Positions 8,804 through 64,000 of a stretch of 64,000 nt of DNA are shown here, piece by piece. Source of the stretch: an uncultured Gammaproteobacteria bacterium (GTDB lineage: Bacteria; Patescibacteriota; Patescibacteriia; UBA9934; CAZDDW01). Below the pieces are notes generated by a model, which was not told where the DNA came from, made no database searches, and saw only the letters and a list, made by a program, of their open reading frames with translations. Both the position numbers and the translations under genes were made by a program. The stretch is from assembly GCA_965231015.1 (NCBI GenBank), contig OZ246408.1, positions 620,115 to 684,114 of the forward strand, given 5' to 3'. Position 1 is the stretch's first letter; each line of letters opens with the position of its first letter.

Positions 8804-8804
8804 C

Positions 8805-9059: not shown

Positions 9060-9105
9060 GCATCACCTCCCTCCTATTTTACGTACTTTTACCGTACCAT
9101 AATTC

Positions 9106-9134: not shown

Positions 9135-9144
9135 TTGGCTTGTT

Positions 9145-9966: not shown

Positions 9967-9976
9967 ATAAACAAAA

Positions 9977-10018
9977 AATGACTGCCGAAAATATCGAGAG
10001 TCATTTTGTTTTTTTGTG
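9977..10018. terminator. Intrinsic terminator after folD (convergent with the permease gene)
   Basis: AATGACT/AGTCATT stem enclosing GCCGAAAATATCGAG, then TTTGTTTTTTTGTG. Confidence 0.55.
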
Positions 10019-10030
10019 ATGTTTAATATG

Positions 10031-11215: not shown

Positions 11216-11237
11216 GAGGCGATTTTATTCAGACCAA

Positions 11238-11801: not shown

Positions 11802-11818
11802 ATTGATATTTTCAATAT

Positions 11819-42095: not shown

Positions 42096-42097
42096 AA

Positions 42098-48000: not shown

Positions 48001-51000
48001 AACCACTGGAAAGGTCGTTGGTAATAGCCGCGTAACCGGATCCGAAATCAATTCCACCCGGATAATTGGTCGTATCGTTTTGAGTGATTGATAAAGCGGC
48101 GGTGTTTGAGTTGTCAGGGACTGTAATTTGAACAGCCCCGCTGTCGGCTGTAATTAGTCGACCAGCTCCGGCACCGCCGAAATCATAGGCTTGATCAAGC
48201 GTTCCACCGGCTCCGGCTCCCAGACCGGCTGCATAAGTACCAACCGCGTTTAAAGCATGGACGAGTGAATCAGAGGTTTCACCAGAAACCGATCCGATCG
48301 TTCCGGTGGCTTCAAAAATTTCACCAGCGGCGTTTAATAAATCATCACCAAAGAAAGCACTGTCTTGGGTAAAAGCAAGGTCATCCCGCGTATCCGTAAA
48401 GCTGATAAAACCATCTCCGGTACCATTCAAAACCCGAGCCTGAATTGCTGTGTAAGCATTTCCGTTAGCGGCAACGTTATCAATATATGAACCAAGACTG
48501 GTGTAGGCATGGTGACCTAAATCTTCGTTTATAGATTTAATCTCTACAACTGCATCGTTATCTCCGGTTTCAGCTACCTCAGCGACTAATTGAGCCCGAA
48601 CGTCTTGTCCTCCTTCAGCATCAGTTTCCCAAAGGTATAAATACACAGAACGAGTTGGACTGTCGTTTGGAAAATCATTCATGGCTTGCATGAAAGACAA
48701 GGAACGATCTTGACTCGCCTCATCTGCTCCAATGTAATTTCCGAAACCGACGGCACCCTGATTCAAACCAGTATAAACTGGGTTGTTACCATATGGATCT
48801 ATCATGAATCCAGCATTTATATCTGCAACCGTAACATCGTCAGCTATAGCGATCCAATTACTGGTCAGGTCAGTTAAAAGCGAGTGTCCTCCAACACCGG
48901 TAAACTCAATCGCCGCCCCATCGCCGGCATTACTGATCGTTAAAGCTGACGGGTCATTTGTAGCATCATTTTGAGTAATGGTAAGCACGGAATGATTGGA
49001 ATTGTTCGGGGTAATGAATTGGATCGTTCCCGAGTCAGCCGTAATGGTTCTACCGTTACCGGCACCACCAAAGTCGTAAGCCTGATCCAGTGTACCACCG
49101 CCGCCGGCACCAATTCCGGCCGCATAAGACCCAACCGCATTCAGGGCATGTACTAAAGAATCGGATGTTTCACCAACACCTATTGAAGACCCAATGGTTC
49201 CAGTACTACTGAAGACCTCTCCCGGAGCATTTAACAAGTCATCACCCAAGCTAGAGCCGTATTGAGTGAAGGTCAGCTGGTCATTTTCGTCACGGAATGA
49301 AATCCATGAATCCATGGTGCCAGTATCATCAACCGCGGCTTCTAACTCAATATATGCATCTCCACTATTTCCGGCTCCACGTTTGTGAGCCTCAATGTGT
49401 ACGACCGAATCTCCACCATTATCTTCATGACTTGATTCTAAAACAGCTTCGGCGTCATCTGTGCCACCACCCGGTTCAATCTGAGCCAATGATCTGACTT
49501 CGACATTTCCATCTTCATCTGTTTCAAAAGCACCCACAACAGCCCAACGAGTTGGCGAACCGGTCAGATGGTTTGCGTTACCGGAATAATTAACTGATCC
49601 GGCTAAATTATTTCCGGCTGTTGCCGCTCCAACATAGTTATAATAACCGACCACCCCGTAACCAACCGCTGAAAAGGCCGGACTTACTCCGTAAGGATCA
49701 GCCAATAAACCGCCTGTTGACGTGGTGCCCATGTCGTTGGAGTCTCCCATAACATAATAATTGGAGGTAATATCTTCAAAAGTGGTTGAATAAACACTGG
49801 ATCCGGAAAAATGCAGACCAGATGCTCCGGAAGCATTGTTGGTAATCTGAACAGCCGGGTCAGTAGCCGCGGTATTGTTGTGCGTGGCTAAAAGACTGCT
49901 TCCTTGACTGTAGTTCCTAATCTTTAGTGCCGCGTCAGTAAAATCTTTTCCGTGTGTCACCTCTAAGGCACGCTCAGCCATAGGATTTCCAAAAGTCACA
50001 CTGCCTTCTAAAACATCCGCACTGACCGATTCAGCCGGAAATCCAGGATTACCTCCAATCACGGTTTGAACCGTTGCCACTGTTCCACTAGGATCAAGAG
50101 AAACGAGCTGGTACATACCATCATGAGCCGCTGAGCCAGACACCAAAAATGTTGTGGAAGCTGATTCTGTAATATTTAAACTGCGAAGATTAGTTGAAAA
50201 AGTGATTGTGTTTCCTGATAAAGTTACTGCCTCTGTCAATAATTCATAAGAACTGGTCAAACCAAGAGTTCTTTCATTTCCCATAATTGTCACACCGAAA
50301 GCAAATTCACCAACTGCTGGTTCAGAATTCACAACCAAGGTTGCAGGAAAATCAGTAAAGGTCGTCGTTCCAAGTCCAGAATTCAATTTTAGTAAAGAGT
50401 CACTAAAAGTAGCTGTTTCTGCTTGTCCGGCATCACTAATGTACACCGGCCCGCTGTCAGCTATAATGCTTCGCCCGACACCGGCACCTCCGGTATCATA
50501 TGACTGATCAAGCGTGCCGCCACCGCCACCTAACGAATCTACATATTCCTTATCAACCAAAGATCGGTTTGTGTAGTTTGATGAATAATCAGCTGCATAA
50601 ACAGCTCCTTCAAAACCAACTACATCACTGGTAATCGATATGTTTTCCGGAGAAACATCAAGACTGGTACTTGTAAGATTATTATCATCACTTCTTTCAA
50701 AAGACAGGTCATTTGTTCGCATCCAAGTATTCATGATTTCACCCGTAGCAGAATTCTCAGCCGTGTAGAAAACTCCTCCTGAATCCTGATTCAGTTCGCT
50801 AAAATAAATACCCGTGTTCATTGATTGAATCCATTCATCCTCCCCAATCTCTACCATCATTCCCGTATTCTCAATAATAAAATAATTTCCGTTCAAATCA
50901 AACGTACGATCTTCAGAAAGAGAACCGTCGGAATTGAAGATATTAATACTTGCATTATCTACATATTCCTTATCAACCAAAGATCGGTTTGTGTAGTCAG

Positions 51001-52798: not shown

Positions 52799-52840
52799 GG
52801 GGTCTTTTTATTTCTTATATTTTAGCAAATTATAAAGTTA

Positions 52841-52864
52841 ATATCCACAGGAAACTGTGGATAT
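52841..52864. repeat. Perfect 10-bp-arm inverted repeat ATATCCACAG-GAAA-CTGTGGATAT upstream of the giant gene
   Basis: It lies between the 52896 stop and the 52798 start. The arms resemble a TTATCCACA-like box, suggesting an operator or an attenuator hairpin. Confidence 0.35.
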
Positions 52865-52895
52865 TTTGGGTACTTTTTTTTACTCTTAAATGCGC

Positions 52896-53897
52896 TTAAT
52901 TAACTAAACGCCACCCCTCATCAGTATAAACCACATAAAACACTTGACTCATTCCATCATCCGTCACAATAATTTCCACCACATTGTCAAACTCAATTGG
53001 GTATAACTCATTTTGCCAAGTACTCAAGACTTTAACGCTAGAAATTCCTAATTCTTGATCCACCAAATCATCTAACCCAAAAATACTTTCTTTGCTTTCA
53101 TGATCTTTGACATGTTGTGTCTCATCAACCTCGGCTTTTAGATCATCATATACATACTGATAATTGTCTTTATACAATCCTCGGGCTTCATTATTAACCA
53201 CGTTAATCAGAAGGTTGTACATCTCATAATTAAAATATATTGTCTGGTTGGCTTCGTCCTGAATTTCATACCGCAAGGATCGGATCAGTTTTGGATGTGT
53301 AAGCTTGATTCCGTTGGTTTTATCAATCGATGGAAAAGTATAGCCACCGCTATTTGACGTGTGAACCGAAACTTTGCCCACGGTCAAATCCACTCCTTCC
53401 ACACCGGACTCGGTTAACGGATCAATCACTGTGCCGCTCACGGTTGTTATGACCGGCTCAGTAGTATCAAACCAGTCCTCAAAAACCGCACTGTCTTTAT
53501 TGATGTAAACCCCAACCACTAAAGCAATCGCTACCGCGATTACAGAGAGCAAGATGGCTCCTTTGGTATAGCGCATGTTCTTTTTATCTGTTTCAGATTT
53601 ATCAGCTTTTTTAGCTAAACGAATTGAGTTCCAACCCAAGACACAAATCAAGGCAAAAAGCACTAAAATAAGCGCATTAAAGAAGGGCGGAACAACACTT
53701 TGCACCTGTTCAATAACCCCAGGCTCATCCTGCAACACAAAAAAGGCCACGTCTTGTTCCCTACCATCTGACGTTTGCAACACGGCAGTGTGTACCCCTG
53801 GTTCTAAATTATTCAAAATTTCCGTACTCCAATTACCATACTCGTCAGTTTTGATATCGAGCTCAAGCGGCTCGTTCAAGGTTCCTTCTGTGGCCAT
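52896..53897 (-). CDS. Bitopic membrane protein with Cna-B/CarboxypepD_reg-like extracellular domain (333 aa)
   Basis: Two TM helices, VPPFFNALILVLFALICVLGW and AILLSVIAVAIALVVGVYI, then TVSGTVIDPLTESGVEGVDLTVGKVSVHTSNSGGYTFPSI. The ATG is 1 nt after the upstream gene's TAA. Confidence 0.5.
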   Translation of the reverse strand: MATEGTLNEPLELDIKTDEYGNWSTEILNNLEPGVHTAVLQTSDGREQDVAFFVLQDEPGVIEQVQSVVPPFFNALILVLFALICVLGWNSIRLAKKADKSETDKKNMRYTKGAILLSVIAVAIALVVGVYINKDSAVFEDWFDTTEPVITTVSGTVIDPLTESGVEGVDLTVGKVSVHTSNSGGYTFPSIDKTNGIKLTHPKLIRSLRYEIQDEANQTIYFNYEMYNLLINVVNNEARGLYKDNYQYVYDDLKAEVDETQHVKDHESKESIFGLDDLVDQELGISSVKVLSTWQNELYPIEFDNVVEIIVTDDGMSQVFYVVYTDEGWRLVN

Positions 53898-53898
53898 A

Positions 53899-56502
53899 TT
53901 AATAAATGATAAGTCTTAGCGACTGTAGTGGATCAGCCTTGCCAAAAAACTGAATCGACTCTTCAGTTCTGCGAATTTCAATAAACTGTAGGCTGGATTC
54001 CGCTTCCACGTACTGGGTGACCGGTGCCACACTTTCGTAAACGGTTTCCGTGACCGTTTCGGTAACTGTCTCGGTTATCGGCACTTCCCGCATCACCTCC
54101 TCGGTTTCAGTGATAACTTCTGGAGTACACACTAATCCCTCACCAGCTCCATAAACTGGAACCATTAACACTTCTGGGCCAATAGCCACTCGGCCACGAG
54201 CGGTAGTTATTGGTCGGAAATGGTAAACCGTACCCATGGCTAATCCGTCAATGACCACGGCATGATAAGTGCTGTCGTCATTGGTTTCTGGGGTTGAAAG
54301 CGGATAACCGTAATTTGGTTCAGCACCAAGCGACGTGTGCGACACGTCATCGTACAGCACCCGACCGGTACCAGCCATATTACTCAACCAGCTGACCAAT
54401 ACGGAATCACTGTCAATTTGAGTAGCTTCCACGGTGGTGATATTAATTGATGGCACCTGGGTCTCAATTCCACCTCCCCCACCTTCACAAACCGCACGCG
54501 TACCCTCGGCTTCATACTCACAACTCGAGTCACAACCGTCTCCATCATTTGTATTCCCATCATCACAATCTTCATTTAGCTCAACAAGATAGTTTCCACA
54601 AATCTCTTCAGAAAGACAGTTTGAACTACAACCGTCCCCACTTACCGTGTTTCCATCATCACATACCTCGTTTCCTTCGATTACTCCATTACCACACAAC
54701 TGTCCTACACCACCACCGACTGTCAATGAATAAACGTCCCGTTCCATTAAATTACCACCGGCATCAGCGGCATATATTATGACTGGAACCGCTTCTCCGG
54801 CAGTAAAATCAATTTCCGGGTCAATTGAAAATTGATAAATGTTTGGTGCGGAAACATTGGTGACCACTGTGGTATCACCAACATAATTACCTCCGTTAAA
54901 ATCAAGACTGCTCGCATATGTGATTCGGGTTCCGCTTACGGTCACTTGTCCGGCTCCCCCACCGTTTGTGTAATAGGTTCCGTTGACATAAATCACCACC
55001 TCATCAAGATCAACCCCAACCCCATCATCATTCAGATTAAACTCGACCGTACCATCAGCCACAATTCCGGCGTCATCAGCCGGGTTTCGCGTGTCCACGT
55101 ACGGAGCATCTGAGTCAGTGGTGGTAAAAGTATAGTTGTCAGCCACCATTACGTTGCCGGCTACATCTTCACAATTGTAAACACTCACGGAAACGGTTTC
55201 GTTTTGGGCAAAATCACTGGCCGGGTTAATAGTGATCTGGTAGCCATAGTCAACCGCGGTCACGGTCAAATCACCATGACCCTCCTGGTACGTGGTCAAA
55301 GCAAAACTTGGGCTGGAAACATCAATATCACAAGTATTTGAAACCACCCCGGTTCCAGAAATGTTTCCCGGATAATTTTTCAAATCTTGAACCGTGATAA
55401 CAAGATTGGTATCAACCGCGTTGCCTGAACTTCCCCGAACAGGTGACTCAGATGTCACTTCCGGGGGAACATCATCTTCTTCAGTGGTAAAGGTCCAGGT
55501 TTTAGTATCCATGGTGTTTGGACCATTGGCGTCACCCAGCTGATCTTGGCTAGAACTAGCTAAATCTTGGTATCCGCTAACTTCTACCGTATACGAGGTA
55601 TCGTATTCCCAATTACGATTATCTCCGGCAATACCGCTTGGCGAAGCCGGATCAACTGTTACATCACATTCATTGGTGCCAAAAATTCCGGAACAAGCAT
55701 AACTGGCGTCCCCGGTATGATCTGCCGCGCCTCCCCCGTCATCAAAAGTAATACTGCCCGGTGGAACAGACATATCCACACCGGTACCGGCTCCGGAGTC
55801 ATCCCCTTCACCATTCAAACTATCCCACAACTCAAAGTAATAATCCTCATCAATGTCTACATCAACCGAACCTGTAGACGGGCTCTCATCCTGTGCATAC
55901 GGTTTGATCGTGTCTGCCCAAACGTGAAAATCAAAATCTTCTTCCGAATCCATGTATTCCAGGCCATCACGAGCTATATTAGTGTCGGTCGGTACTCCGT
56001 TCGTGTAATCAATATCAAGAGCAGTCGCATTGTAACCGTAAGCCGCGGCAGTTGGCTCTAACATGGTCCAGGTAACTCGACCGTATTGGCGAGTACCACT
56101 ATAATATGTTCCTGGATTATTGTACGCACTAAATTCCAAATGACCAGCCACGTTATCAATCGATTCACCAACCCAGTTTTGGTAAGCCGTCAGAGTAGTC
56201 AAACCCGAAGCACTAACTTTGTCCGGATCGTAGTCAAGTAAAAAATCAGCTCCGTTGGAGGGGTTGGCCGCATCAATAGCAACGTCGATCCGGGTATTGA
56301 AAGACTGTCCAACGTAATAATAATTGAGATCAGCATCAAGTCCGGTTCCTCCATCTCCGGTGTTATCCGAGCCTGTCTGAGTCAAAGTGTACATCTGAAA
56401 CCAGTTGGTACCGCTTGGGTCAGCTGCGGAAACCGGGGCAGCAAAAAGAAAAACAAAAATCAAGAAATAAAGAAATAAAGAAATCTTAAAATGTTCTCGC
56501 AT
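53899..56502 (-). CDS. Secreted 867-aa protein with Myxococcus-type cysteine-rich repeats (CxxxxxxxxCDDGNxxxGDGC)
   Basis: Signal peptide MREHFKISLFLYFLIFVFLFAAPVSAA. Two repeats, CGNGVIEGNEVCDDGNTVSGDGCSSNC and CGNYLVELNEDCDDGNTNDGDGCDSSC, match the TIGR02232-like motif. A long Gly/Thr/Asp-rich beta region and a C-terminal TETVTETVTE stretch follow. Confidence 0.65.
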   Translation of the reverse strand: MREHFKISLFLYFLIFVFLFAAPVSAADPSGTNWFQMYTLTQTGSDNTGDGGTGLDADLNYYYVGQSFNTRIDVAIDAANPSNGADFLLDYDPDKVSASGLTTLTAYQNWVGESIDNVAGHLEFSAYNNPGTYYSGTRQYGRVTWTMLEPTAAAYGYNATALDIDYTNGVPTDTNIARDGLEYMDSEEDFDFHVWADTIKPYAQDESPSTGSVDVDIDEDYYFELWDSLNGEGDDSGAGTGVDMSVPPGSITFDDGGGAADHTGDASYACSGIFGTNECDVTVDPASPSGIAGDNRNWEYDTSYTVEVSGYQDLASSSQDQLGDANGPNTMDTKTWTFTTEEDDVPPEVTSESPVRGSSGNAVDTNLVITVQDLKNYPGNISGTGVVSNTCDIDVSSPSFALTTYQEGHGDLTVTAVDYGYQITINPASDFAQNETVSVSVYNCEDVAGNVMVADNYTFTTTDSDAPYVDTRNPADDAGIVADGTVEFNLNDDGVGVDLDEVVIYVNGTYYTNGGGAGQVTVSGTRITYASSLDFNGGNYVGDTTVVTNVSAPNIYQFSIDPEIDFTAGEAVPVIIYAADAGGNLMERDVYSLTVGGGVGQLCGNGVIEGNEVCDDGNTVSGDGCSSNCLSEEICGNYLVELNEDCDDGNTNDGDGCDSSCEYEAEGTRAVCEGGGGGIETQVPSINITTVEATQIDSDSVLVSWLSNMAGTGRVLYDDVSHTSLGAEPNYGYPLSTPETNDDSTYHAVVIDGLAMGTVYHFRPITTARGRVAIGPEVLMVPVYGAGEGLVCTPEVITETEEVMREVPITETVTETVTETVYESVAPVTQYVEAESSLQFIEIRRTEESIQFFGKADPLQSLRLIIY

Positions 56503-56503
56503 A

Positions 56504-57301
56504 TTAATTGTCCCCTTCCAAATTAAAATTCTTTAAAACTGTAGTCAAGTCTAACGCGTTTACTTTGGTGTCTTGGTTTAAATTAGACCTATACCCGTTC
56601 CCGGTAGCATCACTTTCAGCAAAATCAGTTAAGCACTGCGTAATATCAAGGGCGTTTATTTTATCATCTCCTAAAGTTGCCGGAGCGTCTCCGGCCAAAT
56701 TAATATCCCCAGCAATAAGTTCGATTGCACCTTTGGGAGCAGAATTATCAGTTTGAGAAAAATTTAGTGTTGTGGTTCCGTCTATCAACGGTACATCATC
56801 TAAGACTAAAGTTAAATGTTGATCCGTTTTTATCCCAATATCATACGTCCCGGCAGCCACTGCCAATTCAATCGGAATCGAATACGTACCATCAACTTCA
56901 GATGTAGCCAAGACCGATTGTGTGTACAAAATCACATCATCGGAATTATCCGAAGTTCTGACCGTAAGAATAAAAGTCACATCATCGTTAGTTTCGGCAA
57001 CACCATAACGTAATTCCGGTACCGCCCATTGCACGACGGCAAAAACTGTTCCCACAGCATCATCCCACCAGGTTCCATGGTCATAGATGTAATTGGCACT
57101 GGTCGAGGTTCCAACCCCCGGGTGACCGACCTCAGCCTTGAACTGATAGTTAGTTGAACTACCGTCAAACTCAACCGGACCACCACGCTCCTGATTCATA
57201 TCGTAGTTTGCACTATCCCCGGCCAAAGCTAAAGCCGGTAGCATCATAAGTGCCCCAGTTATCAAAAGAATTCTCCGATTGATTATGGCTCGGATCTTCA
57301 T
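56504..57301 (-). CDS. Secreted protein with dockerin-like Ca-binding repeats (265 aa)
   Basis: Signal peptide MKIRAIINRRILLITGALMMLPALALA. The C-terminus has two ~22-aa segments, GDDKINALDITQCL and NLNQDTKVNALDLTTVL, resembling the type-I dockerin DxNxDxxVNxxD loops. Confidence 0.5.
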   Translation of the reverse strand: MKIRAIINRRILLITGALMMLPALALAGDSANYDMNQERGGPVEFDGSSTNYQFKAEVGHPGVGTSTSANYIYDHGTWWDDAVGTVFAVVQWAVPELRYGVAETNDDVTFILTVRTSDNSDDVILYTQSVLATSEVDGTYSIPIELAVAAGTYDIGIKTDQHLTLVLDDVPLIDGTTTLNFSQTDNSAPKGAIELIAGDINLAGDAPATLGDDKINALDITQCLTDFAESDATGNGYRSNLNQDTKVNALDLTTVLKNFNLEGDN

Positions 57302-57375
57302 GTTTTTATCTGCCCCTTTATTTTACCCTAAAAATACAAAATGTGCTTTGAGTTATGTGGACAGATGAATAAGTC

Positions 57376-57404
57376 TTGATTTTACTCTGATTTTAGAGTA
57401 GTAT
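57376..57404 (+). promoter_or_regulatory. Possible promoter TTGATT-17-TAGTAT for tRNA-Gln
   Basis: TTGATT at 57376-57381, a 17-nt spacer, and TAGTAT at 57399-57404. The tRNA 5' end lies 19 nt downstream. Confidence 0.3.
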
Positions 57405-57422
57405 TGTTGTACCCGAAGACAA

Positions 57423-57496
57423 TCCGAGGTCGTCTAAGGGCAGGACACCAGGTTTTGGTCCTGGGAATCGGGGTTCGAATCCCTGCCTCGGAACCA
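57423..57496 (+). tRNA. tRNA-Gln (anticodon UUG), CCA encoded
   Basis: Manual fold: acceptor TCCGAGG/CCTCGGA; D-arm GTCT-AAGGGCA-GGAC; anticodon arm CCAGG-TTTTGGT-CCTGG with TTG at positions 34-36; T-arm CGGGG-TTCGAAT-CCCTG; discriminator A plus CCA at 57494-57496. Confidence 0.8.
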
Positions 57497-57498
57497 GT

Positions 57499-57526
57499 AA
57501 AACCTCTCACTTTGTGAGGGGTTTTA
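57499..57526 (+). terminator. Intrinsic terminator after tRNA-Gln
   Basis: AAAACCTCTCAC-TTT-GTGAGGGGTTTT: an 8-bp stem with one G-U pair, then a T-tract. Confidence 0.7.
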
Positions 57527-57579
57527 CTAATATTGACAGGAAAAACTCTGACCAGGTCCTCCCTTTCAAGGAAAACATA

Positions 57580-59148
57580 CTATTTAATCGGCAAGCTAAA
57601 CCAGAAGGTCGAACCTTTCCCTTCTTCACTCTCAAACCCGATTTTTCCCTTATGAGCTTTGATAAACGATTGGGTAATAAACAAACCTAAACCAACCCCA
57701 TCCTGGTTCATGACCTGGGCGTTAGAAGCCCGAAAAAAGCGTTTGAAAATATTTTTCTGTTCAGACTTGGGAATTCCAATTCCCTGGTCTTTTACCTTGA
57801 CCACCACCTGTTTTTTCTCAACCCCCAACTCTACCCACACAGTCCCCCCATCCGCTGTGTAACGAATGGCATTGTCTAGCAATATTTCTATGGTGCACCG
57901 GATCTTCTCGGAATCAAAATCCATTAAATCCAATTCCTTACCAGGGCCTTTATATTTAATAACGATATTATTATTTTGGGCTTTAGGCCGAAATAACTCT
58001 ACAATTGATTTAACCAAACTCTCCATATCCGTTCCCACGGTTTCAAGAGTCAAATGCCCTCGCTCAATATCAAGCGCTGTATTCATGTTGCCAATCAACC
58101 GTAGAACATCTTCTTCACTATCTAAGGCACGGCGTATGAATGCTTCATGTTCCGGATTTAAAGCCCCGAATTGTCCGGAAAGCAAGGACTCCAGGTTCCA
58201 CCTGATTTCATTAAGAGGAGTTCTGGTGACATGGGTTAAGGCTGTGATAAAACGGGACTTTAAGACATCAAATTCTTTTTCTTTTTCTTCAGCCTGTTTT
58301 CGTTCCGTTATGTCCACCAGCGACGCCACCGACTGTTTAGTTCCCTCAATCATGGCCAAGTTGGCCAAAACATCATGAACCTTCCCATCCCGGTCAATAA
58401 ACTTAAACTCATAAACACTTGGGACAGAGCTCGGGTCAATCCGCCGCATCATGTGATACTTCAACATCATTGGCAAATACCGTTTCATGACAAAATTCGT
58501 CCATTTCTTTTTTCCCTCAATCTCGTTTTTTGAATACCCGGACACTTCACAAAACTTCTTATTGACATAAGAAATAGTTTGATTCTCTTCCACAATACAC
58601 GTAGCCGCACCAGTATTTTCCAATAACGTTTTATAACGTTGTTCACTTTGCTCCAGCTGATTTGTCTTTTGTTTACGAAGCGAAATATCCAGTGCTGTGA
58701 AAACCACCCCCCTGCTTCTATCTCCGGAATAGATATAAGCCGAGCTTAAAGAAACATCAATTATTTCTCCATTTTTCTTTTGCATCTGTGTTTCCACACG
58801 TCCCACTCCCTGCTCTTCGATTTCTTGATACTTAACCTTACCAACCCGATCATAAGCCGCCTTACTGGGATAAAGAATCCTGGCGTTTTTTCCTATGAGC
58901 TCCTTTTCTTCATACCCCAACATTTCACAAAAACGATCATTGACTTCCATAAGATTTCGTTTTTCATCAATTATCCCCATACCCACCGGCGAAGCTTTAA
59001 CAATACCCTGATATAACGCCTGTTGTTTGCTAAGTTCCTTTTTGGTTTGTTCCAACTGAAAATAGGCTGAACGAAGAAGCTCAACTTCAAACTGAAGGTT
59101 CTGACACTGCTTTAAAACGTCTTCTTTTGTCTTATTTTTATCAGCCAT
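57580..59148 (-). CDS. Cytoplasmic PAS-domain sensor histidine kinase
   Basis: 522 aa with no TM segment. It has a coiled-coil, two PAS domains, a HisKA H-box LTHVTRTPLNEI, and HATPase_c (GLGLFITQSFIKAHKGKIGFESEEGKGSTFWFSLP). Confidence 0.85.
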   Translation of the reverse strand: MADKNKTKEDVLKQCQNLQFEVELLRSAYFQLEQTKKELSKQQALYQGIVKASPVGMGIIDEKRNLMEVNDRFCEMLGYEEKELIGKNARILYPSKAAYDRVGKVKYQEIEEQGVGRVETQMQKKNGEIIDVSLSSAYIYSGDRSRGVVFTALDISLRKQKTNQLEQSEQRYKTLLENTGAATCIVEENQTISYVNKKFCEVSGYSKNEIEGKKKWTNFVMKRYLPMMLKYHMMRRIDPSSVPSVYEFKFIDRDGKVHDVLANLAMIEGTKQSVASLVDITERKQAEEKEKEFDVLKSRFITALTHVTRTPLNEIRWNLESLLSGQFGALNPEHEAFIRRALDSEEDVLRLIGNMNTALDIERGHLTLETVGTDMESLVKSIVELFRPKAQNNNIVIKYKGPGKELDLMDFDSEKIRCTIEILLDNAIRYTADGGTVWVELGVEKKQVVVKVKDQGIGIPKSEQKNIFKRFFRASNAQVMNQDGVGLGLFITQSFIKAHKGKIGFESEEGKGSTFWFSLPIK

Positions 59149-59150
59149 GT

Positions 59151-59516
59151 TTATTTGATAATTTTCTTGATTCTCTTTACTAAATCCTCTCGATCAAAAG
59201 GCTTAACAATATAATCAGAAACCCCCTGCTTTTTCATGACTTTTATTTTTTCCTCGTCTGCCTCTAAGACGGTTAGAAAAGCGATTCGTGCCGTGGAATT
59301 TCTTTCTTGAATCCTGGAAAGAAGTTCCCAGCCTGACATTTCCGGCATCATAATATCCAACAAAAACAGGTTGTAGGTATTATTTTTCATCTTCTTTAAA
59401 GCCTCGCTTCCACTGGTCGCTGAATCCACGACATAACCCTCTTGATCTAAAATTAAACGCACAACGTCCAATGTGTCCTGGTCATCATCAACGTGTAGAA
59501 TGGTTTTTCCTGGCAT
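59151..59516 (-). CDS. Stand-alone response-regulator receiver (CheY-like)
   Basis: 121 aa: ILHVDDDQDTLD...LFLLDIMMPEMSGWELL...YIVKPF. The phospho-acceptor Asp and conserved Lys are present, with no output domain. Confidence 0.85.
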   Translation of the reverse strand: MPGKTILHVDDDQDTLDVVRLILDQEGYVVDSATSGSEALKKMKNNTYNLFLLDIMMPEMSGWELLSRIQERNSTARIAFLTVLEADEEKIKVMKKQGVSDYIVKPFDREDLVKRIKKIIK

Positions 59517-59520
59517 ATTT

Positions 59521-62454
59521 TTAGTTAGGGAAATTAATCATTACATCCGTACCTTTGCCGCGACCTGAGCTTGTTAGACGAACGTCACCACCGTAGATTT
59601 GTACCAGACCTTTTACAATAGCCAAGCCCAGTCCGGTTCCTTCATATTTTCTGGCCGCACCAACACTGGCCTGATAAAAAGGTTCAAAGATTTTTTCTTG
59701 CTCTTTTTTAGTTAAACCGATTCCCTTATCTTTAACTGTAATTTCAGTTCCCTGCTTTGTTTTTTTGGCTGAAATAACAACTGCCCCGCCTGATTTATTA
59801 AACTTAATCGCGTTTTCGATTACCTCATCCAGTATTCTTTTTAAGAGTCCCGGATCTGCCTTAACCATTAACCCAGCCTTTACTCTGTTTTGAATAAATA
59901 TCTTTTTATCTTTGATCTGCTTTTCTTTTTCACCCAACACTTCTTGAACAGTTTTCAACAGAGCATGTTTGGTTTTTTTGATTTTAACCTGGCCACTCTG
60001 AATCTTGGTCATCATCAAAAAGTCACTAATCAAATTCCTTAAACGCTCCTCACCTCTTGCCACCATTAACAAAGCTTCTCGTTGTTGGTCTGACAAATCA
60101 CCAAACTCACCCTCTAGCAGTAGATCGGTTTGTAAACGAATCGGCACGAGTGGTGTATTTAATTCGTGGGCGGCCACTTGAATAAACTCATTCCGTACTC
60201 CCCTTGCCTCAACTAATTGTTCCGCCAATCTTTCCACGTGACTACGGTTATAATCCACCCCACGGTACCCAACCGGCTCCCCGGTCTCATCAACAATAGG
60301 TCTTCCATCAGTCACCAAATTAACCTCATGTCCGTCTTTGTGCAGATTGGTATTAGCAAAATCATTTATCGCTTCTTGCTTTTTAAAGGCGGCAAAAGCC
60401 AGCTCTTTTAGCTTCTTTCGTTCACCCGGTACAAAGAGATCATAAAAATGCTTTTTTCCAACTATCTCTTCCGGTTTATACCCTAAAATATCTTCTACGG
60501 CCGGACTTGAATACGTATACAACCCCTTCACATCAACCTCCCAGATCCATTCATGAGCGGTTTCAGCCACGTGCTCAAAACGGGCTTCAGCTTTTTTAGC
60601 ACGCCTAAAGGCGGCACTTTTCTCCGTGACATCAACCAGGGAGGCCACTGATTGTATGGTGCCTGGAATAAGTGAAATATCCAAACGGGCGGTTTTTTTG
60701 TCACCTTTTCGATTAACAAAATCAAACTCGTAAGAACTTGGTGGAGCAAGCCTTGTTCCGCTCTTACGTCGCGCTTCATGATACTTCTTCATCATCTGTA
60801 AAAACCTCTGATCAACAAACTTGGTCCAGCTCATTTTTCCCTCCACCTCTTCTTTAGAATAGCCGGTTAGTTCAGCGAACTTTTGGTTTGCTAAGGAAAT
60901 AATTGTATTAGGCTCAACAATACACATGGCCGTGGCCGCGTTGTCAATAATCGATCGATAATACTCTTCTTTCTTTTCAATCTCCTCTGTACGTTCCTCA
61001 ACTGTTTGTTCAAGTTCTTCTAAGATCTGCTCTCGCTCCTTGCCTAAATTAACTCGCTCGGTTACGTTCGAGGCCATCAACATCAAACTGCGCTCATATT
61101 TTCCGTTTTGTTCAGTCACCACCGGCACCCCACGGTAGTGGTGCCACTGAATATCTGTGCCATCGAGCGGCTCAAACTGTAACTCAACCTCAATACTATT
61201 TCCTTCTAATCCCTGTTTGATAAATTTATCAAGTCCGGACTCTTTATAAGCACGGATCTGAAAAACATTTTTGTTCATTAGTGCTAAACGGCTTTCCACA
61301 CCAACCAGCTCTGACATTTTAGAATTAAGTGACGTGATAATCCCGTTTTTATCGAGTGTCATGATCCCAAGAGGAGCGTTTTCAAATAACAATGAAAGGT
61401 TTCCTCTGGTTGAACGCAGTGTTTGCACCAGATCATTAAAAACTTTCGCTAAAACACCAAACTCATCCACGGCTTTGACTTTTAGTTCTGTGTCCAGGTC
61501 CCCGCTTTCCAATTCCTTCATGGCCTGACTGAATTTACGCATGGTTCTAATCTTGACCGAAACAACAAAACTGGCTAGAAATACCATTATAATGGCGGTG
61601 ATTAAAACAATGCCGACGGTGCTATTCTTGATGAAATTTGAGCCGAAATAAAATTCTTGTTTTTCCTGGACCCCTACAATATACCAATTAGGTAAACCGG
61701 TGTGGCCGTTCATGTGTTCCACCGGCAAAGCTATGGTGACATAACTATCGTTTCCTTCATACGCTTCAGCCGGACTTAAAATTTCATCAGTTCCAGCCCC
61801 GGTAACTACGCGCCCAAAAACATCTTTTAAAAATACAAATCCGGTTTCTCCTACGGAAATTTTTTCTGAGAAACGCCAAATATCTTCTACGTCCACCTGA
61901 AAAACCAGAACCTCAATAACCGCATCGGAATCGTTTTTAATCGGCACCAGATAATTCACCACTTCTTTTTGTGGCCTTGGGATGACCTGTACCGGAGAAA
62001 AAACCGGTGATCCATCAAGAGCGGTCTTAAAACTCTCTGATTCGGACCAGGTGGTTCGAAAATTGTACCGTGAGGCGGCCAGCACCGTACCGTTTGTATC
62101 GAGTAAAATAATATCGTCATAAACATCAAAAAGCTCGTTATACTCTTTTAGAAGACTTTCTCTTTCAGCGGTTGATAGGGTCATTTTTTGCAGATTTGCA
62201 TCACTCACTAATACGATTGAGTTGTGAACAACCTCTTCAATCACCAGAGCCACAATCTGCCCGGCTTGCGTGGCAGCTTGATTTAACGCTTCAAAACTCT
62301 GTTTTTCTTGATATTTGCTGATGCGTGGAATAACAAAACCAAAAAACGAAACGGATAAAATACTCAACAATAACAACCCCCCTAATCCCGCCTGATAGGC
62401 TAAGGGGAACTTTGGCTTTAATTTATTTTTATTTCTTTCCTCCTTTTGGGTCAT
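59521..62454 (-). CDS. Transmembrane multi-PAS sensor histidine kinase (977 aa) with large extracytoplasmic sensor domain
   Basis: TM1 LAYQAGLGGLLLLSILSVSFFGFVI, a ~250-aa periplasmic (Cache-like) region, TM2 VGIVLITAIIMVFLASFVVSV, HAMP, three PAS domains, H-box AAHELNTPLVPI, and HATPase_c GTGLGLAIVKGLVQIYGG. Confidence 0.85.
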   Translation of the reverse strand: MTQKEERNKNKLKPKFPLAYQAGLGGLLLLSILSVSFFGFVIPRISKYQEKQSFEALNQAATQAGQIVALVIEEVVHNSIVLVSDANLQKMTLSTAERESLLKEYNELFDVYDDIILLDTNGTVLAASRYNFRTTWSESESFKTALDGSPVFSPVQVIPRPQKEVVNYLVPIKNDSDAVIEVLVFQVDVEDIWRFSEKISVGETGFVFLKDVFGRVVTGAGTDEILSPAEAYEGNDSYVTIALPVEHMNGHTGLPNWYIVGVQEKQEFYFGSNFIKNSTVGIVLITAIIMVFLASFVVSVKIRTMRKFSQAMKELESGDLDTELKVKAVDEFGVLAKVFNDLVQTLRSTRGNLSLLFENAPLGIMTLDKNGIITSLNSKMSELVGVESRLALMNKNVFQIRAYKESGLDKFIKQGLEGNSIEVELQFEPLDGTDIQWHHYRGVPVVTEQNGKYERSLMLMASNVTERVNLGKEREQILEELEQTVEERTEEIEKKEEYYRSIIDNAATAMCIVEPNTIISLANQKFAELTGYSKEEVEGKMSWTKFVDQRFLQMMKKYHEARRKSGTRLAPPSSYEFDFVNRKGDKKTARLDISLIPGTIQSVASLVDVTEKSAAFRRAKKAEARFEHVAETAHEWIWEVDVKGLYTYSSPAVEDILGYKPEEIVGKKHFYDLFVPGERKKLKELAFAAFKKQEAINDFANTNLHKDGHEVNLVTDGRPIVDETGEPVGYRGVDYNRSHVERLAEQLVEARGVRNEFIQVAAHELNTPLVPIRLQTDLLLEGEFGDLSDQQREALLMVARGEERLRNLISDFLMMTKIQSGQVKIKKTKHALLKTVQEVLGEKEKQIKDKKIFIQNRVKAGLMVKADPGLLKRILDEVIENAIKFNKSGGAVVISAKKTKQGTEITVKDKGIGLTKKEQEKIFEPFYQASVGAARKYEGTGLGLAIVKGLVQIYGGDVRLTSSGRGKGTDVMINFPN

Positions 62455-62457
62455 AAT

Positions 62458-63520
62458 TTAGACCTGACTTTGGTCTAAGAATAAAAGTAATCGTGACCAA
62501 GTCTGAACGTATAAACTATCCGCTACAATCGCGTCTCCCCAACTGACCAACTTTTCCCACTGGCTCTCGCTCGGATATATAAAAGGGTTGTTTAACCGAT
62601 CTTCGTCCACTAAACACGCGTCATAAATAGCCTGGTTTGGGTTGGCGTAATAGGTATAATTAGTGACCGCGGCGTGCACATCAGGGCGCAAGACATAATT
62701 GATAAACGCTTCTGCGGTTTGTTGGCGAAGCGTGCCGGCCGACACGGCCATGACGTCGTAAAAAGCCATGGCTCCACTGTCCGTAATCAAGACTTTCAAG
62801 TTTGGATTTGCTTCTTTGGCCACTACCGCCTCGCTATTATAAAGATGACCGATCCAAATTTCTTCTTCAATTAATTGATCCCGGATATCAATTGGATCCT
62901 CTACAGTTGCGCCGTTGGTAATTATTTTCTCCAGAAAATCTTCTACTTCACTAAAAGCTTCCGGATCACTTTCACTGACTTCATAACCATTATTAGAGAG
63001 CTACCCTGTTTTGAAAACATTGGTCTGATAAATCCTGCCAACCATCCAGACCAGAAACATATTTGGTGTTGTAGACAAGCGGAGTAAAACCATGGTCATA
63101 AAACATGGAATATCGACTACCTGAGTCATAATCTGGATTATGAAGACACTCCATGAGATGGTTGAAATTTGGAACGTTATCATGGTTAACCCTGTTTACT
63201 AAACGATAATCAATCAGTTCAGATAGTAATCTTCCCGAAGGGAAAATAACGTCATATGCTCCCGGGTCGTTTTGTAGCACAGTAATGATTTGATCTTCGT
63301 CTTCAAAAGTCTCAACAATTAAATCAACCGAATACTCTTCTTCAAAGACCTGAATGACCTCTTCCTGAATAAATTCTTCCCAGGTGTAAATTTTCAGTTC
63401 AGAATCAAGACCAATGATTTGGTGCTGGGTTTGATAAGACTTAACTAACATCCAAGTTAAAAGAGCCAGAGAAATTACAAATACGGAAATTAAAAACCTA
63501 AAAAAGACACGCTTGTTCAT
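62458..63520 (-). pseudogene. PotD/PotF-like polyamine-type periplasmic binding protein, interrupted by a +1 frameshift near 62995
   Basis: Track ORFs 62993..63520 (signal peptide, LKIYTWEEF..., YDVIFPSG..., TPLVYNT) and 62458..62823 (FINYVLRPDVHAAV) are the N and C halves of a single SBP. The C-terminal frame is open all the way from 62997. Joining the halves needs a +1 shift at CTC-TAA-T. Confidence 0.6.
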
Positions 63521-63625
63521 AGAATCACGTTATTTGTTTAAATTATATCATGTTTACGATTTCAAAACTAAAAAATTTGACCAAGCTTTAAATAAAGTTA
63601 TAAGATTGTTTTCTGGAGGTGAGAG

Positions 63626-64000
63626 ATGGTGCCCCCGAGAAGGCAAGAGTGGGATCGCTACATGGTCTGTTACGATGTGGTTGTGGCTCGACTGTGGCCA
63701 TACCGACAGCTGATCAATCTGGTGCTTGATGCCCTCGCTGTGAAGCCGGGTCAGCGAATCCTGGATGCCGGTTGTGGTACCGGGGTGTTGCTCAAGACCG
63801 TGGCCGACCTCGATTTCAAGGTTGACCTCATCGGCATTGATGCCCAGACCTCGGCTACAGAGCGAGCAGAAGACAAGCTCGGTGATGCCGCGCACATCGT
63901 ACGGGAAAATCTGAATCAACCCAACTGGATCAACGGCATTCTCGAGTCCGTTGACACCATGGTATCCGTCAACGCACTTTACATCCTGGAGGATCCGTAC
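63626..64000 (+). CDS. Class I SAM-dependent methyltransferase, N-terminal part (GC-rich cassette, runs off the window end)
   Basis: SD TGGAGGTGAGAG directly before the ATG at 63626. MVPPRRQEWDRYMVCYDVVVARLWPYRQLINLVLDALAVKPGQRILDAGCGTGVLLKTVADLDFKVDLIGIDAQTS... contains motif I LDAGCGTG. The region is visibly GC-rich. It is missed by the ORF track because there is no stop inside the window. Confidence 0.65.
   Translation, partial: MVPPRRQEWDRYMVCYDVVVARLWPYRQLINLVLDALAVKPGQRILDAGCGTGVLLKTVADLDFKVDLIGIDAQTSATERAEDKLGDAAHIVRENLNQPNWINGILESVDTMVSVNALYILEDPY

What the first reader, a model, noticed from the sequence alone, without database searches (positions are those of the whole stretch)
57580..63520. 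Signal-transduction cluster: PotD-like binding protein (frameshifted) - 977-aa TM multi-PAS kinase - lone receiver - cytoplasmic PAS kinase with paralogous PAS modules
Four co-directional genes have 3-5-nt junctions. The PAS domains next to the HisKA of both kinases are clearly paralogous (IVE(E/P)N..IS..N.KF.E..GYSK.E.EGK..WT.FV....L.MM.KYH..RR...........YEF.F......K.......L....G...QSVASLVD.TE). This implies a branched phosphorelay onto a receiver with no output domain. The upstream solute-binding protein likely gates the TM kinase through its periplasmic domain. Elaborate signalling is unexpected in a genome this reduced.
Basis: partly seen in the sequence, partly recalled or inferred. Interest (0 to 1): 0.5.

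Follow-up and report, generated by a model that had tools for sequence, protein, structure and literature searches.

The report
Binding-protein-coupled two-kinase signalling operon
A tiny-genome (Patescibacteria) bacterium carries a four-gene sensing operon whose outside sensor is built like the Vibrio polyamine sensor NspS-MbaA but drives a histidine kinase, and its binding-protein gene is broken in this genome; it is a recombination of known modules rather than a new kind of system.

Summary
The four minus-strand genes are real. They are a PotD/PotF-family binding protein split into 175- and 121-codon ORFs, a 977-aa membrane kinase (dCache_1-HAMP-3 PAS-HisKA-HATPase), a 121-aa receiver, and a 522-aa soluble 2-PAS kinase. 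The spacers are 3, 4 and 2 nt.

A 78%-identical relative keeps the same operon with an intact 363-aa binding protein. The window lacks 38 nt there: 12 codons of a conserved helix plus 2 nt.

The closest binding-protein homologues (33-52% identity) are followed by dCache_1-HAMP transducers in 16 of 21 loci, never by ABC transporter parts. More distant ones (25-32%) sit beside ABC permeases or ATPases (19 of 28).

The PAS pair is 48-50% identical (z = 63). However, it is not next to HisKA in the large kinase. It also belongs to a huge conserved PAS subfamily in which unrelated proteins are equally similar. It therefore does not imply shared wiring.

The large kinase's catalytic half and the receiver are present or absent together across relatives. 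The soluble kinase has a non-canonical H-box resembling a neighbouring third kinase that sits beside a second receiver and PilB.

Verdict: partly supported, modest novelty.

The parts
63542..63550 (-). Extended -10-like element TGATATAAT, 21 nt upstream of the binding-protein start. It lies in the ~105-nt gap shared with a divergent methyltransferase gene.
   Evidence: Read directly from the sequence. This is a consensus match only. The promoter scan was not above shuffles.
62993..63520 (-). Binding-protein fragment A: 175 codons plus stop, with an N-terminal membrane anchor at residues 3-29. It is the N-terminal half of a PotD/PotF-family (NspS-like) solute-binding protein.
   Evidence: It is 76% identical to the intact orthologue L002:4254-5345, with dN/dS 0.08.
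62990..63000 (-). Lesion site. Two nucleotides are missing in the Leu-Leu-Asn-Asn codons (CTCTCTAATAAT), which shifts the frame. Immediately after it, 36 nt (12 codons, IAPVLLELGYEI in the relative) are missing between GGTTATGAA repeats.
   Evidence: The missing helix aligns to the PotD segment REVFQMALRKLGY. The sequence is identical in L005.
62458..63000 (-). Binding-protein fragment B: the C-terminal half in the +1 frame. The first possible start is GTG at 62823 (121 aa), and it has no signal sequence of its own.
   Evidence: It is 79-80% identical to the orthologue, with dN/dS 0.075.
59521..62454 (-). HK1, a 977-aa transmembrane sensor histidine kinase with a canonical H-box, AAHELNTPL.
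   Evidence: It is 78% identical to P0002.
61414..62397 (-). HK1 sensor module: TM1 (aa 20-46), extracytoplasmic dCache_1 (Pfam 55-220), TM2 (273-305) and HAMP (304-347).
   Evidence: It is homologous to the sensor modules of transducers encoded next to related binding proteins.
61045..61392 (-). HK1 PAS-A (aa ~355-470).
60610..60993 (-). HK1 PAS-B (aa 488-615), the domain that resembles HK2 PAS-B.
60256..60549 (-). HK1 PAS-C (PAS_3, aa 636-733), lying between PAS-B and HisKA. It is 47% identical to a PAS domain in PAS-only proteins of two archaeal loci.
59527..60195 (-). HK1 kinase core: HisKA (aa 754-821) and HATPase_c (867-976).
59151..59516 (-). RR121, a stand-alone receiver with no output domain. 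It carries D10/D11, D54, T82 and K105.
   Evidence: Pfam Response_reg 1.8e-30. No NCBIfam equivalog cut-off is reached. It is the only receiver in the window.
57580..59148 (-). HK2, a 522-aa soluble kinase: PAS-A (aa 45-156), PAS-B (165-292), HisKA (297-357) and HATPase_c (412-521). Its H-box THVTRTPL lacks the acidic residue after the His.
58273..58656 (-). HK2 PAS-B, directly before HisKA.
57497..57521 (.). Weak hairpin followed by a T run, between the HK2 stop and the 3' end of the convergent tRNA-Gln (57423-57496, + strand). It is the likely 3' limit of the unit.
   Evidence: This is a consensus match only.

Best explanation
This is one operon of a Patescibacteria (CPR) genome of about 1 Mb. 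It joins an NspS/MbaA-type outside sensor to a histidine-kinase pathway.

In the intact form, seen in the relative L002, the proposed steps are:
- A membrane-anchored PotD/PotF-family binding protein captures an extracellular amine, probably a polyamine (inferred).
- It docks on the dCache_1 domain of HK1. The signal passes through HAMP and three PAS domains to set HK1's kinase/phosphatase balance (inferred by analogy and gene association).
- HK1 phosphorylates the adjacent 121-aa receiver, its most likely cognate partner (inferred from adjacency, co-presence and co-absence).
- The receiver has no output domain. It must therefore act by protein contact or as a phosphate sink (inferred). The nearest candidate target is the type IV pilus gene set just beyond the window.
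- HK2 adds a cytoplasmic input through its own PAS domains. It acts either on the same receiver, possibly mainly as a phosphatase, or on the second receiver next to PilB.

In this genome the binding-protein gene carries two lesions, so HK1 now works without that input.

Shown here: gene structure, domains, lesions, operon conservation, the association between binding-protein clade and transducer type, and the PAS statistics. Inferred: ligand, docking, phosphotransfer partners and output.
For: Gene structure and conservation:
- Domains come; spacers of 3, 4 and 2 nt.
- The same four genes occur in L002-L004 with an intact 363-aa binding protein.
- All genes are under purifying selection (dN/dS 0.06-0.11), including both binding-protein fragments. 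The break is therefore recent.

Binding protein and sensor module:
- The binding protein is a PotD/PotF-family member: PotD model 1.3e-38, and 7xjm/1pot at 1e-40/3e-35.
- No ABC transporter genes are adjacent.
- The gene after close homologues is a dCache_1(-HAMP) transducer in L085, L087, L089 and 13 of 18 metagenome loci. In the 25-32% identity class there are 14 permeases plus 5 ATPases among 28.
- HK1 residues 1-350 match those transducers at E 1e-37 to 1e-12, against 3e-7 or worse for other dCache-HAMP proteins.
- The NspS-MbaA mechanism is established in V. cholerae and S. meliloti (PMC8079147, PMC9993111). Binding-protein-stimulated kinases are reviewed in PMC8050422.

HK1-receiver pairing:
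- L085 lacks HK1's PAS-C-kinase half and lacks the receiver.
- Receivers 45% identical to RR121 lie beside HELxTPL-type kinases in L063 and L072. There, a PAS domain 47% identical to HK1 PAS-C is also present.
- HK1 has the canonical H-E-x-x-T motif.

Organism:
- The source contig is 1,002,985 bp.
- Orthologues of the neighbouring kinase are labelled Patescibacteria or Uhrbacteria.
Against: - No experiment or expression data exist. The promoter and terminator scans are not above shuffles.
- The binding protein is a pseudogene here, so the gating step cannot operate in this genome.
- Only three related lineages carry the cluster, so the co-presence argument rests on one contrast (L085).
- HK2 is 2 nt from the receiver gene, which favours it also using that receiver.
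- The rest of the ~1-Mb genome was not available, so other receivers or kinases may be the true partners.
- dCache_1 domains often bind small ligands directly, so the binding protein may be accessory even where intact.
- The ligand is inferred only from family membership and partly conserved PotD pocket residues.
Confidence: 0.6

Rival explanations
1. One reading: both kinases phosphorylate the single receiver (a many-to-one, branched input). In this view the shared PAS-B domain reflects a duplicated input module.
For: - The receiver lies between the two kinase genes with 4-nt and 2-nt spacers.
- It is the only receiver in the 64-kb window.
- The order HK1-receiver-HK2 is conserved in L002-L003.
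- PAS-B is 48-50% identical between the kinases.
Against: - The DHp helix-1 contact region differs strongly: HK1 HELNTPLVPIRLQTDLL against HK2 HVTRTPLNEIRWNLESL.
- The HK2 orthologue in L085 keeps a nearly identical DHp helix although no such receiver is encoded there.
- The PAS-B similarity is no greater than to unrelated proteins of a subfamily with 2,622 cluster representatives at E<=1e-30.
Confidence: 0.3
2. Kinase/phosphatase pair on one receiver, working like DivJ/PleC on DivK. HK1 is the kinase. HK2 is mainly a phosphatase for RR121~P, tuned by a cytoplasmic PAS signal.
For: - The HK2 H-box is H-V-T-R-T. It lacks the acidic residue at H+1 that was needed for autophosphorylation in CrdS, HK853, HK4262 and HK1190. 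It keeps the Thr at H+4 that is needed for phosphatase activity (PMC3510030).
- The Val is conserved in the orthologues.
Against: - The whole family of the neighbouring, widely conserved kinase (HK707) also lacks the acidic residue (R, S or G). In relatives it has no other kinase or receiver gene called in the ~20 kb fetched around it, so this lineage may autophosphorylate without it.
- HK2 keeps complete N, G1, F and G2 ATP-binding motifs.
- HK2 may not act on RR121 at all (see the L085 evidence).
Confidence: 0.2
3. Two separate pathways share one operon. HK1 signals to RR121. HK2, together with the multi-pass kinase HK707 encoded ~2.9 kb beyond the window end, signals to the second receiver RR127 that directly precedes PilB. 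HK2 thereby controls type IV pili.
For: - The DHp helix 1 of HK2 resembles that of HK707 (IRWNLE vs IRWNVE, with RTPL and non-acidic H+1), not that of HK1.
- The HK2 orthologue, HK707, RR127 and PilB are all conserved in L085, whereas RR121 is not.
- RR127 and its L085 counterpart are 70% identical.
Against: - DHp helix 2 of HK2 and HK707 differs, and their kinase cores are only ~30% identical.
- HK2 is co-oriented and nearly fused with the RR121 gene, and divergent from the RR127 gene.
- In more distant Patescibacteria, HK707 occurs without RR127, PilB or HK2.
Confidence: 0.25
4. The cluster is decaying and no longer functional in this genome. The broken binding-protein gene would be the first sign.
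For: - There are two independent lesions in the binding-protein gene.
- The cluster is confined to a narrow clade and absent from other Patescibacteria that keep the neighbouring genes.
Against: - HK1, RR121 and HK2 are full-length with all catalytic motifs.
- Their dN/dS against the relative is 0.06-0.11, the same as the flanking gene of 333 aa. However, dS is saturated, so very recent relaxation would not show.
Confidence: 0.1
5. The binding protein is (or was) an ordinary polyamine-uptake component, and its position next to the kinase is incidental.
For: Best named matches are transport proteins PotD and PotF.
Against: - No permease or ATPase gene is adjacent in the window, L002, L005 or L085.
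- Transport-type homologues are only 25-32% identical and have ABC neighbours. The 33-52% class has dCache neighbours and no ABC parts.
Confidence: 0.07

Closest known systems
NspS-MbaA polyamine sensor of Vibrio cholerae and Sinorhizobium meliloti (PMC8079147, PMC9993111)
   Same: - A PotD-family binding protein is encoded directly upstream (within 20 bp) of a membrane transducer.
- The transducer has a periplasmic dCache-like domain between two membrane helices, followed by HAMP.
- No transporter genes are adjacent.
- The nearest homologues of this binding protein are followed by exactly MbaA-like dCache_1-HAMP-GGDEF-EAL proteins (L087, L093, L096, L114).
   Different: - The output here is PAS x3-HisKA-HATPase plus a receiver, not GGDEF-EAL.
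- The host is a Patescibacteria genome, not a proteobacterium.
- The binding protein has a membrane anchor rather than a cleaved periplasmic form or lipobox.
- The binding protein is inactivated in this genome.
Binding-protein-stimulated sensor kinases: LuxP-LuxQ, HptA-HptS, TorT-TorS, XylFII-LytS, CBP-ChiS (review PMC8050422)
   Same: An extracytoplasmic solute-binding protein, encoded with signalling genes rather than transporter genes, controls a transmembrane histidine kinase. LuxQ, HptS and ChiS use dCache-like sensor domains.
   Different: - Those binding proteins belong to other families (Peripla_BP_4, SBP_bac_5 and others), not PotD/PotF.
- The review's table lists no PotD-family protein paired with a kinase.
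- Several of those kinases are hybrid kinases feeding Hpt relays, which is not the case here.
DivJ/PleC-DivK (Caulobacter) and other many-to-one systems with a single-domain receiver (own knowledge)
   Same: Two HisKA kinases with PAS inputs and one stand-alone receiver that has no output domain. This would apply if both kinases act on RR121, one mainly as a phosphatase.
   Different: No sequence relationship beyond the shared domains was found. NCBIfam DivK- and CpdR-type models are far below cut-off for RR121. The shared partner is untested, and one relative has the HK2 orthologue without this receiver.
PotD/PotF of the PotABCD/PotFGHI polyamine ABC importers
   Same: Same protein family and fold (1pot 2.8e-35, 7xjm 1.3e-40). 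The pocket positions are partly conserved: W34->W, E36->E, E171->E, D257->D, Y293->Y, and W229->Y.
   Different: - The NCBIfam PotD score is 132.8 bits against a cut-off of 582.
- No PotABC genes are adjacent.
- Its closest relatives are partnered with signalling proteins.

Membership tests
NspS-MbaA-type binding-protein/transducer sensor | The binding protein belongs to the PotD/PotF family. | tested here: met
   For the intact orthologue, NCBIfam gives PotD 1.3e-38 and PotF 5e-27, and PDB gives 7xjm 1.3e-40 and 1pot 2.8e-35. The window fragments hit SBP_bac_6/8.
NspS-MbaA-type binding-protein/transducer sensor | The binding-protein gene lies directly upstream of the transducer gene (within 20 bp, the criterion used in PMC9993111), with no transporter genes beside it. 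| tested here: met
   The spacer is 3 nt in the window, 13 nt in L002 and 2 nt in L085. No BPD_transp_1 or ABC_tran gene is adjacent.
NspS-MbaA-type binding-protein/transducer sensor | The transducer has TM, a periplasmic dCache-like domain, TM, then HAMP. | tested here: met
   dCache_1 scores 55 bits (cut-off 45) and HAMP 37.5 bits. Membrane helices lie at about 20-46 and 273-305. The module is homologous to binding-protein-associated GGDEF-EAL transducers.
NspS-MbaA-type binding-protein/transducer sensor | The cytoplasmic output is tandem GGDEF and EAL (c-di-GMP turnover). | tested here: not met
   The output is PAS x3-HisKA-HATPase_c, with no GGDEF or EAL hit. It therefore works like the family's sensor half but is not an MbaA.
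NspS-MbaA-type binding-protein/transducer sensor | The binding protein binds polyamines and physically contacts the transducer's periplasmic domain. | not testable with these tools
   Only partial conservation of PotD pocket residues is seen. Binding and interaction assays are needed.
NspS-MbaA-type binding-protein/transducer sensor | An intact, exported binding protein. | tested here: not met
   In this window the gene is frameshifted and lacks 12 codons. It is intact in L002 and L085.
Classical HisKA two-component system | The kinase has a phospho-accepting His in an H-E/D-x-x-T/N box plus the N, G1, F and G2 ATP-binding boxes. | tested here: met
   HK1 has HELNT and full HATPase_c (87 bits). 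HK2 has the His and all ATP-binding boxes but reads H-V-T-R-T, with no acidic residue at H+1. HK2 therefore meets the feature only in part.
Classical HisKA two-component system | The receiver has the acidic pair, a phospho-accepting Asp, a Thr/Ser and a Lys. | tested here: met
   RR121 has D10/D11, D54, T82 and K105, read from the sequence and the alignment. Response_reg scores 105.8 bits.
Classical HisKA two-component system | Specific phosphotransfer between the kinase and the receiver. | not testable with these tools
   Only indirect evidence exists: adjacency, co-absence in L085 and archaeal analogues.
Multi-step phosphorelay (His-Asp-His-Asp) | An Hpt or Spo0B-like phosphotransferase, or a hybrid kinase with a fused receiver. 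| tested here: not met
   There is no Hpt or fused Response_reg in HK1 or HK2. The window holds only one receiver and two kinase cores. The rest of the genome was not searched.
Many-to-one (branched) kinase input onto one receiver | Two or more kinases share one receiver. | tested here: inconclusive
   Gene order favours it. Divergent DHp helices, and conservation of the HK2 orthologue without the receiver in L085, argue against it.
PotABCD-type polyamine importer component | The protein is encoded with its ABC permease and ATPase genes, and reaches the equivalog score. | tested here: not met
   It scores 132.8 bits against a cut-off of 582. No ABC genes are adjacent. Homologues that do have ABC neighbours are the more distant ones.

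The most novel reading that the evidence does not exclude
The membrane sensor and the soluble kinase may form a 'split' sensor kinase that communicates through their shared PAS-B domains.

Supporting observations:
- In relative L085 the membrane protein (dCache-HAMP-PAS only) has no kinase core at all. It is followed by the HK2 orthologue, which begins with a PAS-B-type domain.
- In two archaeal loci, PAS-only proteins likewise precede kinases.

If this is right, an extracellular host-derived polyamine signal would be passed by PAS-PAS contact to a cytoplasmic kinase with an unusual H-box. From there it would pass through stand-alone receivers to the adjacent PilB type IV pilus machinery. That would give an episymbiotic CPR cell a host-sensing switch for attachment.
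Probability: 0.12. Interest if true: 0.65.

Novelty: new variant of a known kind. Interest (0 to 1): 0.35.

Why it matters
Patescibacteria have few sensors and largely unknown cues for finding and holding on to hosts.

This locus shows that the NspS/MbaA design is modular. That design pairs a PotD-like binding protein with a dCache-HAMP transducer. In metagenomes the same sensor pair is wired to GGDEF-EAL, GGDEF-HD-GYP or histidine-kinase outputs. In one narrow CPR clade it sits beside a kinase-receiver-PilB pilus block.

If the ligand is a polyamine, this gives a concrete and testable candidate for host or neighbour sensing in a CPR organism. The intact orthologue, the broken copy here and the kinase-less variant in L085 form a natural series for asking which parts are needed.

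As a piece of molecular machinery, however, it is assembled from well-known modules.

Tried and rejected
- The promoter/terminator scan of 57300-64000 found 9 promoter-like and 7 terminator-like sites, against 10.4 and 6.0 in shuffles. It is uninformative for co-transcription.
- The genome-contig scan with HK1 did not recover the source genome or any close relative. It gave only generic PAS kinases at 27-57% identity over partial segments. Those loci were later reused to find RR121-like receivers.
- The exact-sequence cluster look-up gave no organism names. Taxonomy had to be inferred from the labels of HK707 orthologues.
- A tblastn of the binding protein against plasmids found only transport-type PotD at 25-31% identity. 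No annotated NspS reference could be obtained.
- A PDB profile search with six PAS-B copies gave only generic PAS/LOV hits (E >= 2e-4). It gives no clue to a ligand or cofactor.
- The first bootstrap tree run timed out and was redone with a faster distance routine.
- Recent intragenomic duplication or gene conversion of PAS-B was considered and rejected. Each copy is 81-86% identical to its orthologue but only 48% to its partner.
- A sequencing artefact as the cause of the frameshift was considered unlikely. Two lesions are present in two assemblies, although both assemblies probably derive from the same reads.
- Programmed frameshifting was considered unlikely, because 12 codons of a conserved helix are also missing.
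- dN/dS values are rough because dS is saturated at 1.3-2.6.

Full report
**What is there**

All genes of the finding lie on the minus strand:
- A solute-binding protein in two pieces. Fragment A is 63520..62993 (175 aa). Fragment B is in the +1 frame, open from 63000 to 62458, and its first start codon gives 121 aa.
- A 977-aa kinase, HK1 (62454..59521).
- A 121-aa receiver, RR121 (59516..59151).
- A 522-aa kinase, HK2 (59148..57580).

Read directly, the spacers are 3, 4 (AAAT) and 2 (AC) nt.

Pfam gives these architectures:
- HK1: dCache_1 (55-220), HAMP (304-347), three PAS domains (about 355-470, 488-615, 636-733), HisKA (754-821), HATPase_c (867-976).
- RR121: Response_reg only.
- HK2: two PAS domains (45-156, 165-292), HisKA, HATPase_c.

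A hydropathy scan puts membrane helices at about 20-46 and 273-305 of HK1, so dCache faces outward. It finds an N-terminal anchor in the binding protein and no membrane helices in RR121 or HK2.

The unit is bounded upstream by a ~105-nt gap shared with a divergent methyltransferase gene. That gap holds a TGATATAAT element at 63550-63542. Downstream the boundary is a weak hairpin with a T run, followed by a convergent tRNA-Gln at 57423-57496. The promoter and terminator scans were no better than shuffles, so co-transcription is inferred from spacing and conservation only.

**Organism**

HK1's exact sequence is on record on a 1,002,985-bp NCBI contig. The window carries MurB, a Mur ligase, SHMT, FolD, DnaB, CCA-adding enzyme, ClpB, TGT, MraW, UvrABC and very large secreted proteins.

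Orthologues of the kinase encoded ~2.9 kb beyond the window end (HK707) are labelled 'Patescibacteria group bacterium' and 'Candidatus Uhrbacteria bacterium'. The genome is therefore a CPR/Patescibacteria genome of about 1 Mb. The species was not identified, because the genome-collection scan found no close relative.

**The broken binding protein**

A relative (L002-L004; HK1 78% identical) has the same four genes with an intact 363-aa binding protein. Against it the window is 38 nt shorter:
- 36 nt (12 codons, IAPVLLELGYEI) are lost between two GGTTATGAA repeats.
- 2 nt are lost in CTCTCTAATAAT, which shifts the frame.

The lost segment aligns to the conserved PotD helix REVFQMALRKLGY. A second assembly of the same sample (L005) is identical there.

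Both fragments still show dN/dS of about 0.08 against the relative, like HK1 (0.074), RR121 (0.107) and HK2 (0.059). dS is saturated, so the break is recent.

**What the binding protein is**

The intact orthologue is a PotD/PotF-family member. It matches the PotD model at 1.3e-38 but far below the equivalog cut-off, and matches 7xjm and 1pot at 1e-40 and 3e-35. No ABC transporter genes are nearby.

Its closest homologues tell the story:

| Homologue class | Gene immediately downstream |
|---|---|
| P0092, 52% identical (L085) | a dCache_1-HAMP-PAS membrane protein, in the same neighbourhood |
| P0093, 37% (L087) | dCache_1-HAMP-GGDEF-EAL |
| P0094, 41% (L089) | dCache_1-HAMP-GGDEF-HD-GYP |
| 18 metagenome loci at 33% identity or more | 13 dCache_1(-HAMP) transducers, 3 aldehyde dehydrogenases, 2 unclassified, 0 ABC parts |
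| 28 metagenome loci at 25-32% identity | 14 permeases, 5 ABC ATPases, only 2 dCache_1 |

Among the 13 transducers, the outputs are GGDEF-EAL (3), GGDEF-HD-GYP (1), HisKA-HATPase (L100), PAS-HisKA (L097, cut by the contig end) and PAS-HisKA_3-HATPase (L104). The rest are cut by contig ends. L104 is followed by a Response_reg-GerE regulator.

HK1's sensor module (residues 1-350) matches these transducers at E 1e-37 to 1e-12. It matches other dCache-HAMP proteins only at 3e-7 or worse. So the binding protein and the dCache-HAMP module are a co-inherited sensor pair.

This is the design of V. cholerae NspS-MbaA. There, a PotD homologue senses periplasmic polyamines and controls a TM-periplasmic-TM-HAMP-GGDEF-EAL enzyme (PMC8079147, PMC9993111). 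A review calls MbaA's sensor 'dCache-like' and lists several binding-protein-stimulated kinases, none with a PotD-family partner (PMC8050422).

The ligand and the contact remain inferred, and the input is lost in this genome.

**The PAS similarity**

HK1 PAS-B and HK2 PAS-B are 48-50% identical (z = 63). Every other PAS pair in the two proteins is 21-33% identical (z = 1-13).

Two corrections apply.

First, in HK1 the domain is separated from HisKA by a third PAS domain.

Second, a profile of the two copies finds 77,011 cluster representatives at E<=1e-3 and 2,622 at E<=1e-30, often as tandem copies. Single domains of unrelated proteins are 41-54% identical to either copy, the same as the copies are to each other.

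A distance tree of 50 domains groups the six copies of this lineage together, but with only 41% bootstrap. They do share two derived traits: a Cys in A.CI(V/I)E, and K/R-Y/F where other members have E-D-L.

An old lineage-specific duplication is therefore plausible. The similarity mainly says that both kinases carry a member of one conserved PAS subfamily. It does not link their outputs. No solved structure is close, so the signal is unknown.

**Wiring**

The window holds one receiver and two kinase cores. HK1, HK2 and RR121 carry no Hpt domain, and neither kinase has a fused receiver; the rest of the window was not fully scanned for Hpt. A strict phosphorelay is therefore not indicated.

Four observations bear on who talks to whom.

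1. In L085 the HK1 orthologue (38% identical over residues 1-667) ends after extra PAS domains and has no HisKA or HATPase. RR121 is absent there. The next gene is the orthologue of HK2's kinase core (45% identical), and its corrected start adds a PAS-B-type domain. HK1's catalytic half and RR121 are thus present or absent together.

2. HK2's DHp helix 1 (THVTRTPLNEIRWNLESLL) is almost unchanged in L085. It resembles that of the neighbouring kinase HK707 (SHSFRTPLSAIRWNVEEVL) and not HK1's (AAHELNTPLVPIRLQTDLL).

3. HK2 and the HK707 family lack the acidic residue after the His. That residue was required for autophosphorylation in four tested HisKA kinases, while the retained Thr at +4 serves phosphatase activity (PMC3510030). 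Of 167 kinase cores held here, 135 have E or D at that position.

4. Receivers 45% identical to RR121 lie beside HELxTPL-type membrane kinases in two archaeal loci, one from an Aenigmatarchaeota MAG. There, an adjacent PAS-only protein carries a PAS domain 47% identical to HK1's PAS-C.

Together these favour HK1 to RR121 as the cognate pair. HK2's target is left open: RR121, possibly as a phosphatase, or the second receiver.

**Surroundings and output**

L005 extends the locus beyond the window end. In order it holds a methyltransferase, an Acetyltransf_5/TIGR03694-like acyltransferase, HK707 (about 7-8 membrane helices), a 127-aa receiver (RR127) and a PilB-type ATPase with an MshEN domain.

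L085 has the same block followed by PilC and a pilin. RR121 and RR127 are only 36% identical.

More distant Patescibacteria keep only the methyltransferase-acyltransferase-HK707 triad. They have no binding-protein/kinase cluster and no receiver-PilB pair. The four-gene cluster is therefore an accessory island of a narrow clade.

Since RR121 has no output domain, it must act by protein contact or as a phosphate sink. The pilus genes are the nearest candidate target, but this is speculation.

**Is it unexpected?**

CPR genomes average 0.289 kinases per 100 genes, with a range of 0-1.11 (PMC10805038). Three kinases in a genome of about 1 Mb is about average. What is notable is that all three sit within about 13 kb.

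**Verdict**

The gating idea is good for the family but defunct here. The branched-pathway idea is neither implied by the PAS similarity nor favoured by the comparative data.

The system is a new variant of a known kind: an NspS/MbaA-type sensor pair driving a histidine kinase, with a second PAS kinase and a stand-alone receiver, in a CPR genome. Interest is modest (0.35).

Noticed in passing
beyond the window end; L005:2641-6443 (same organism), L085:6120-9834, L090-L092 around 8400-12150: A triad of SAM methyltransferase, an Acetyltransf_5 acyltransferase and a ~700-aa kinase with about 7-8 membrane helices (HK707) is conserved across Patescibacteria at 41-93% identity. The acyltransferase resembles TIGR03694 (exosortase-associated) and hits autoinducer synthase weakly. 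In distant members the triad lies near dnaA/dnaN. The kinase family lacks the acidic residue after the phospho-His (R, S or G). It could be a signal-synthesis-plus-sensor module.
   Followed up: partly
L005:487-2570; L085:2238-5968: A stand-alone receiver (127 aa) directly precedes a PilB-type ATPase with an MshEN (c-di-GMP-binding type) N-domain. In L085 these are followed by PilC and a pilin. This suggests that type IV pili are under two-component control next to the finding.
   Followed up: partly
L085:11053-15992 (also L086): In this relative the membrane dCache-HAMP-PAS protein has no kinase core. The next gene's called start is too short: the real start (ATG at 13758) adds a full PAS-B-type domain to the HK2 orthologue.
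   Followed up: yes
L063:529-4908 and L072:5717-9927: Two archaeal loci, one from an Aenigmatarchaeota MAG, hold a PAS-only protein, a membrane HisKA kinase and a convergent 122-123-aa receiver. The receiver is 45% identical to RR121, and one PAS domain is 47% identical to HK1 PAS-C. Exchange between CPR and DPANN organisms is possible.
   Followed up: partly
window 41589-57301: A block of five genes for large, mostly unannotated proteins (168, 3566, 333, 867 and 265 aa), followed at 57423-57496 by the tRNA-Gln, lies between HK2 and the DUF362/cytidylyltransferase genes. In L085 those genes directly follow the HK2 orthologue. The 3566-aa protein has a Peptidase_S74 (endosialidase chaperone) domain at aa 3206-3262. 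The 867-aa protein has DUF4215 Cys-rich repeats.
   Followed up: partly
window 19772-21514 (-): A 580-aa fusion of Memo-like and AMMECR1 domains.
   Followed up: no
window 26366-27670 (-): A 434-aa protein with FecR and fibronectin type III domains. Its neighbour (25233-26363) has no family match.
   Followed up: no
L104:5998-9998: A complete operon from another organism: PotD-like binding protein, then dCache_1-HAMP-PAS-HisKA_3-HATPase kinase, then a Response_reg-GerE regulator. It shows that the same sensor pair also feeds a DNA-binding output.
   Followed up: yes
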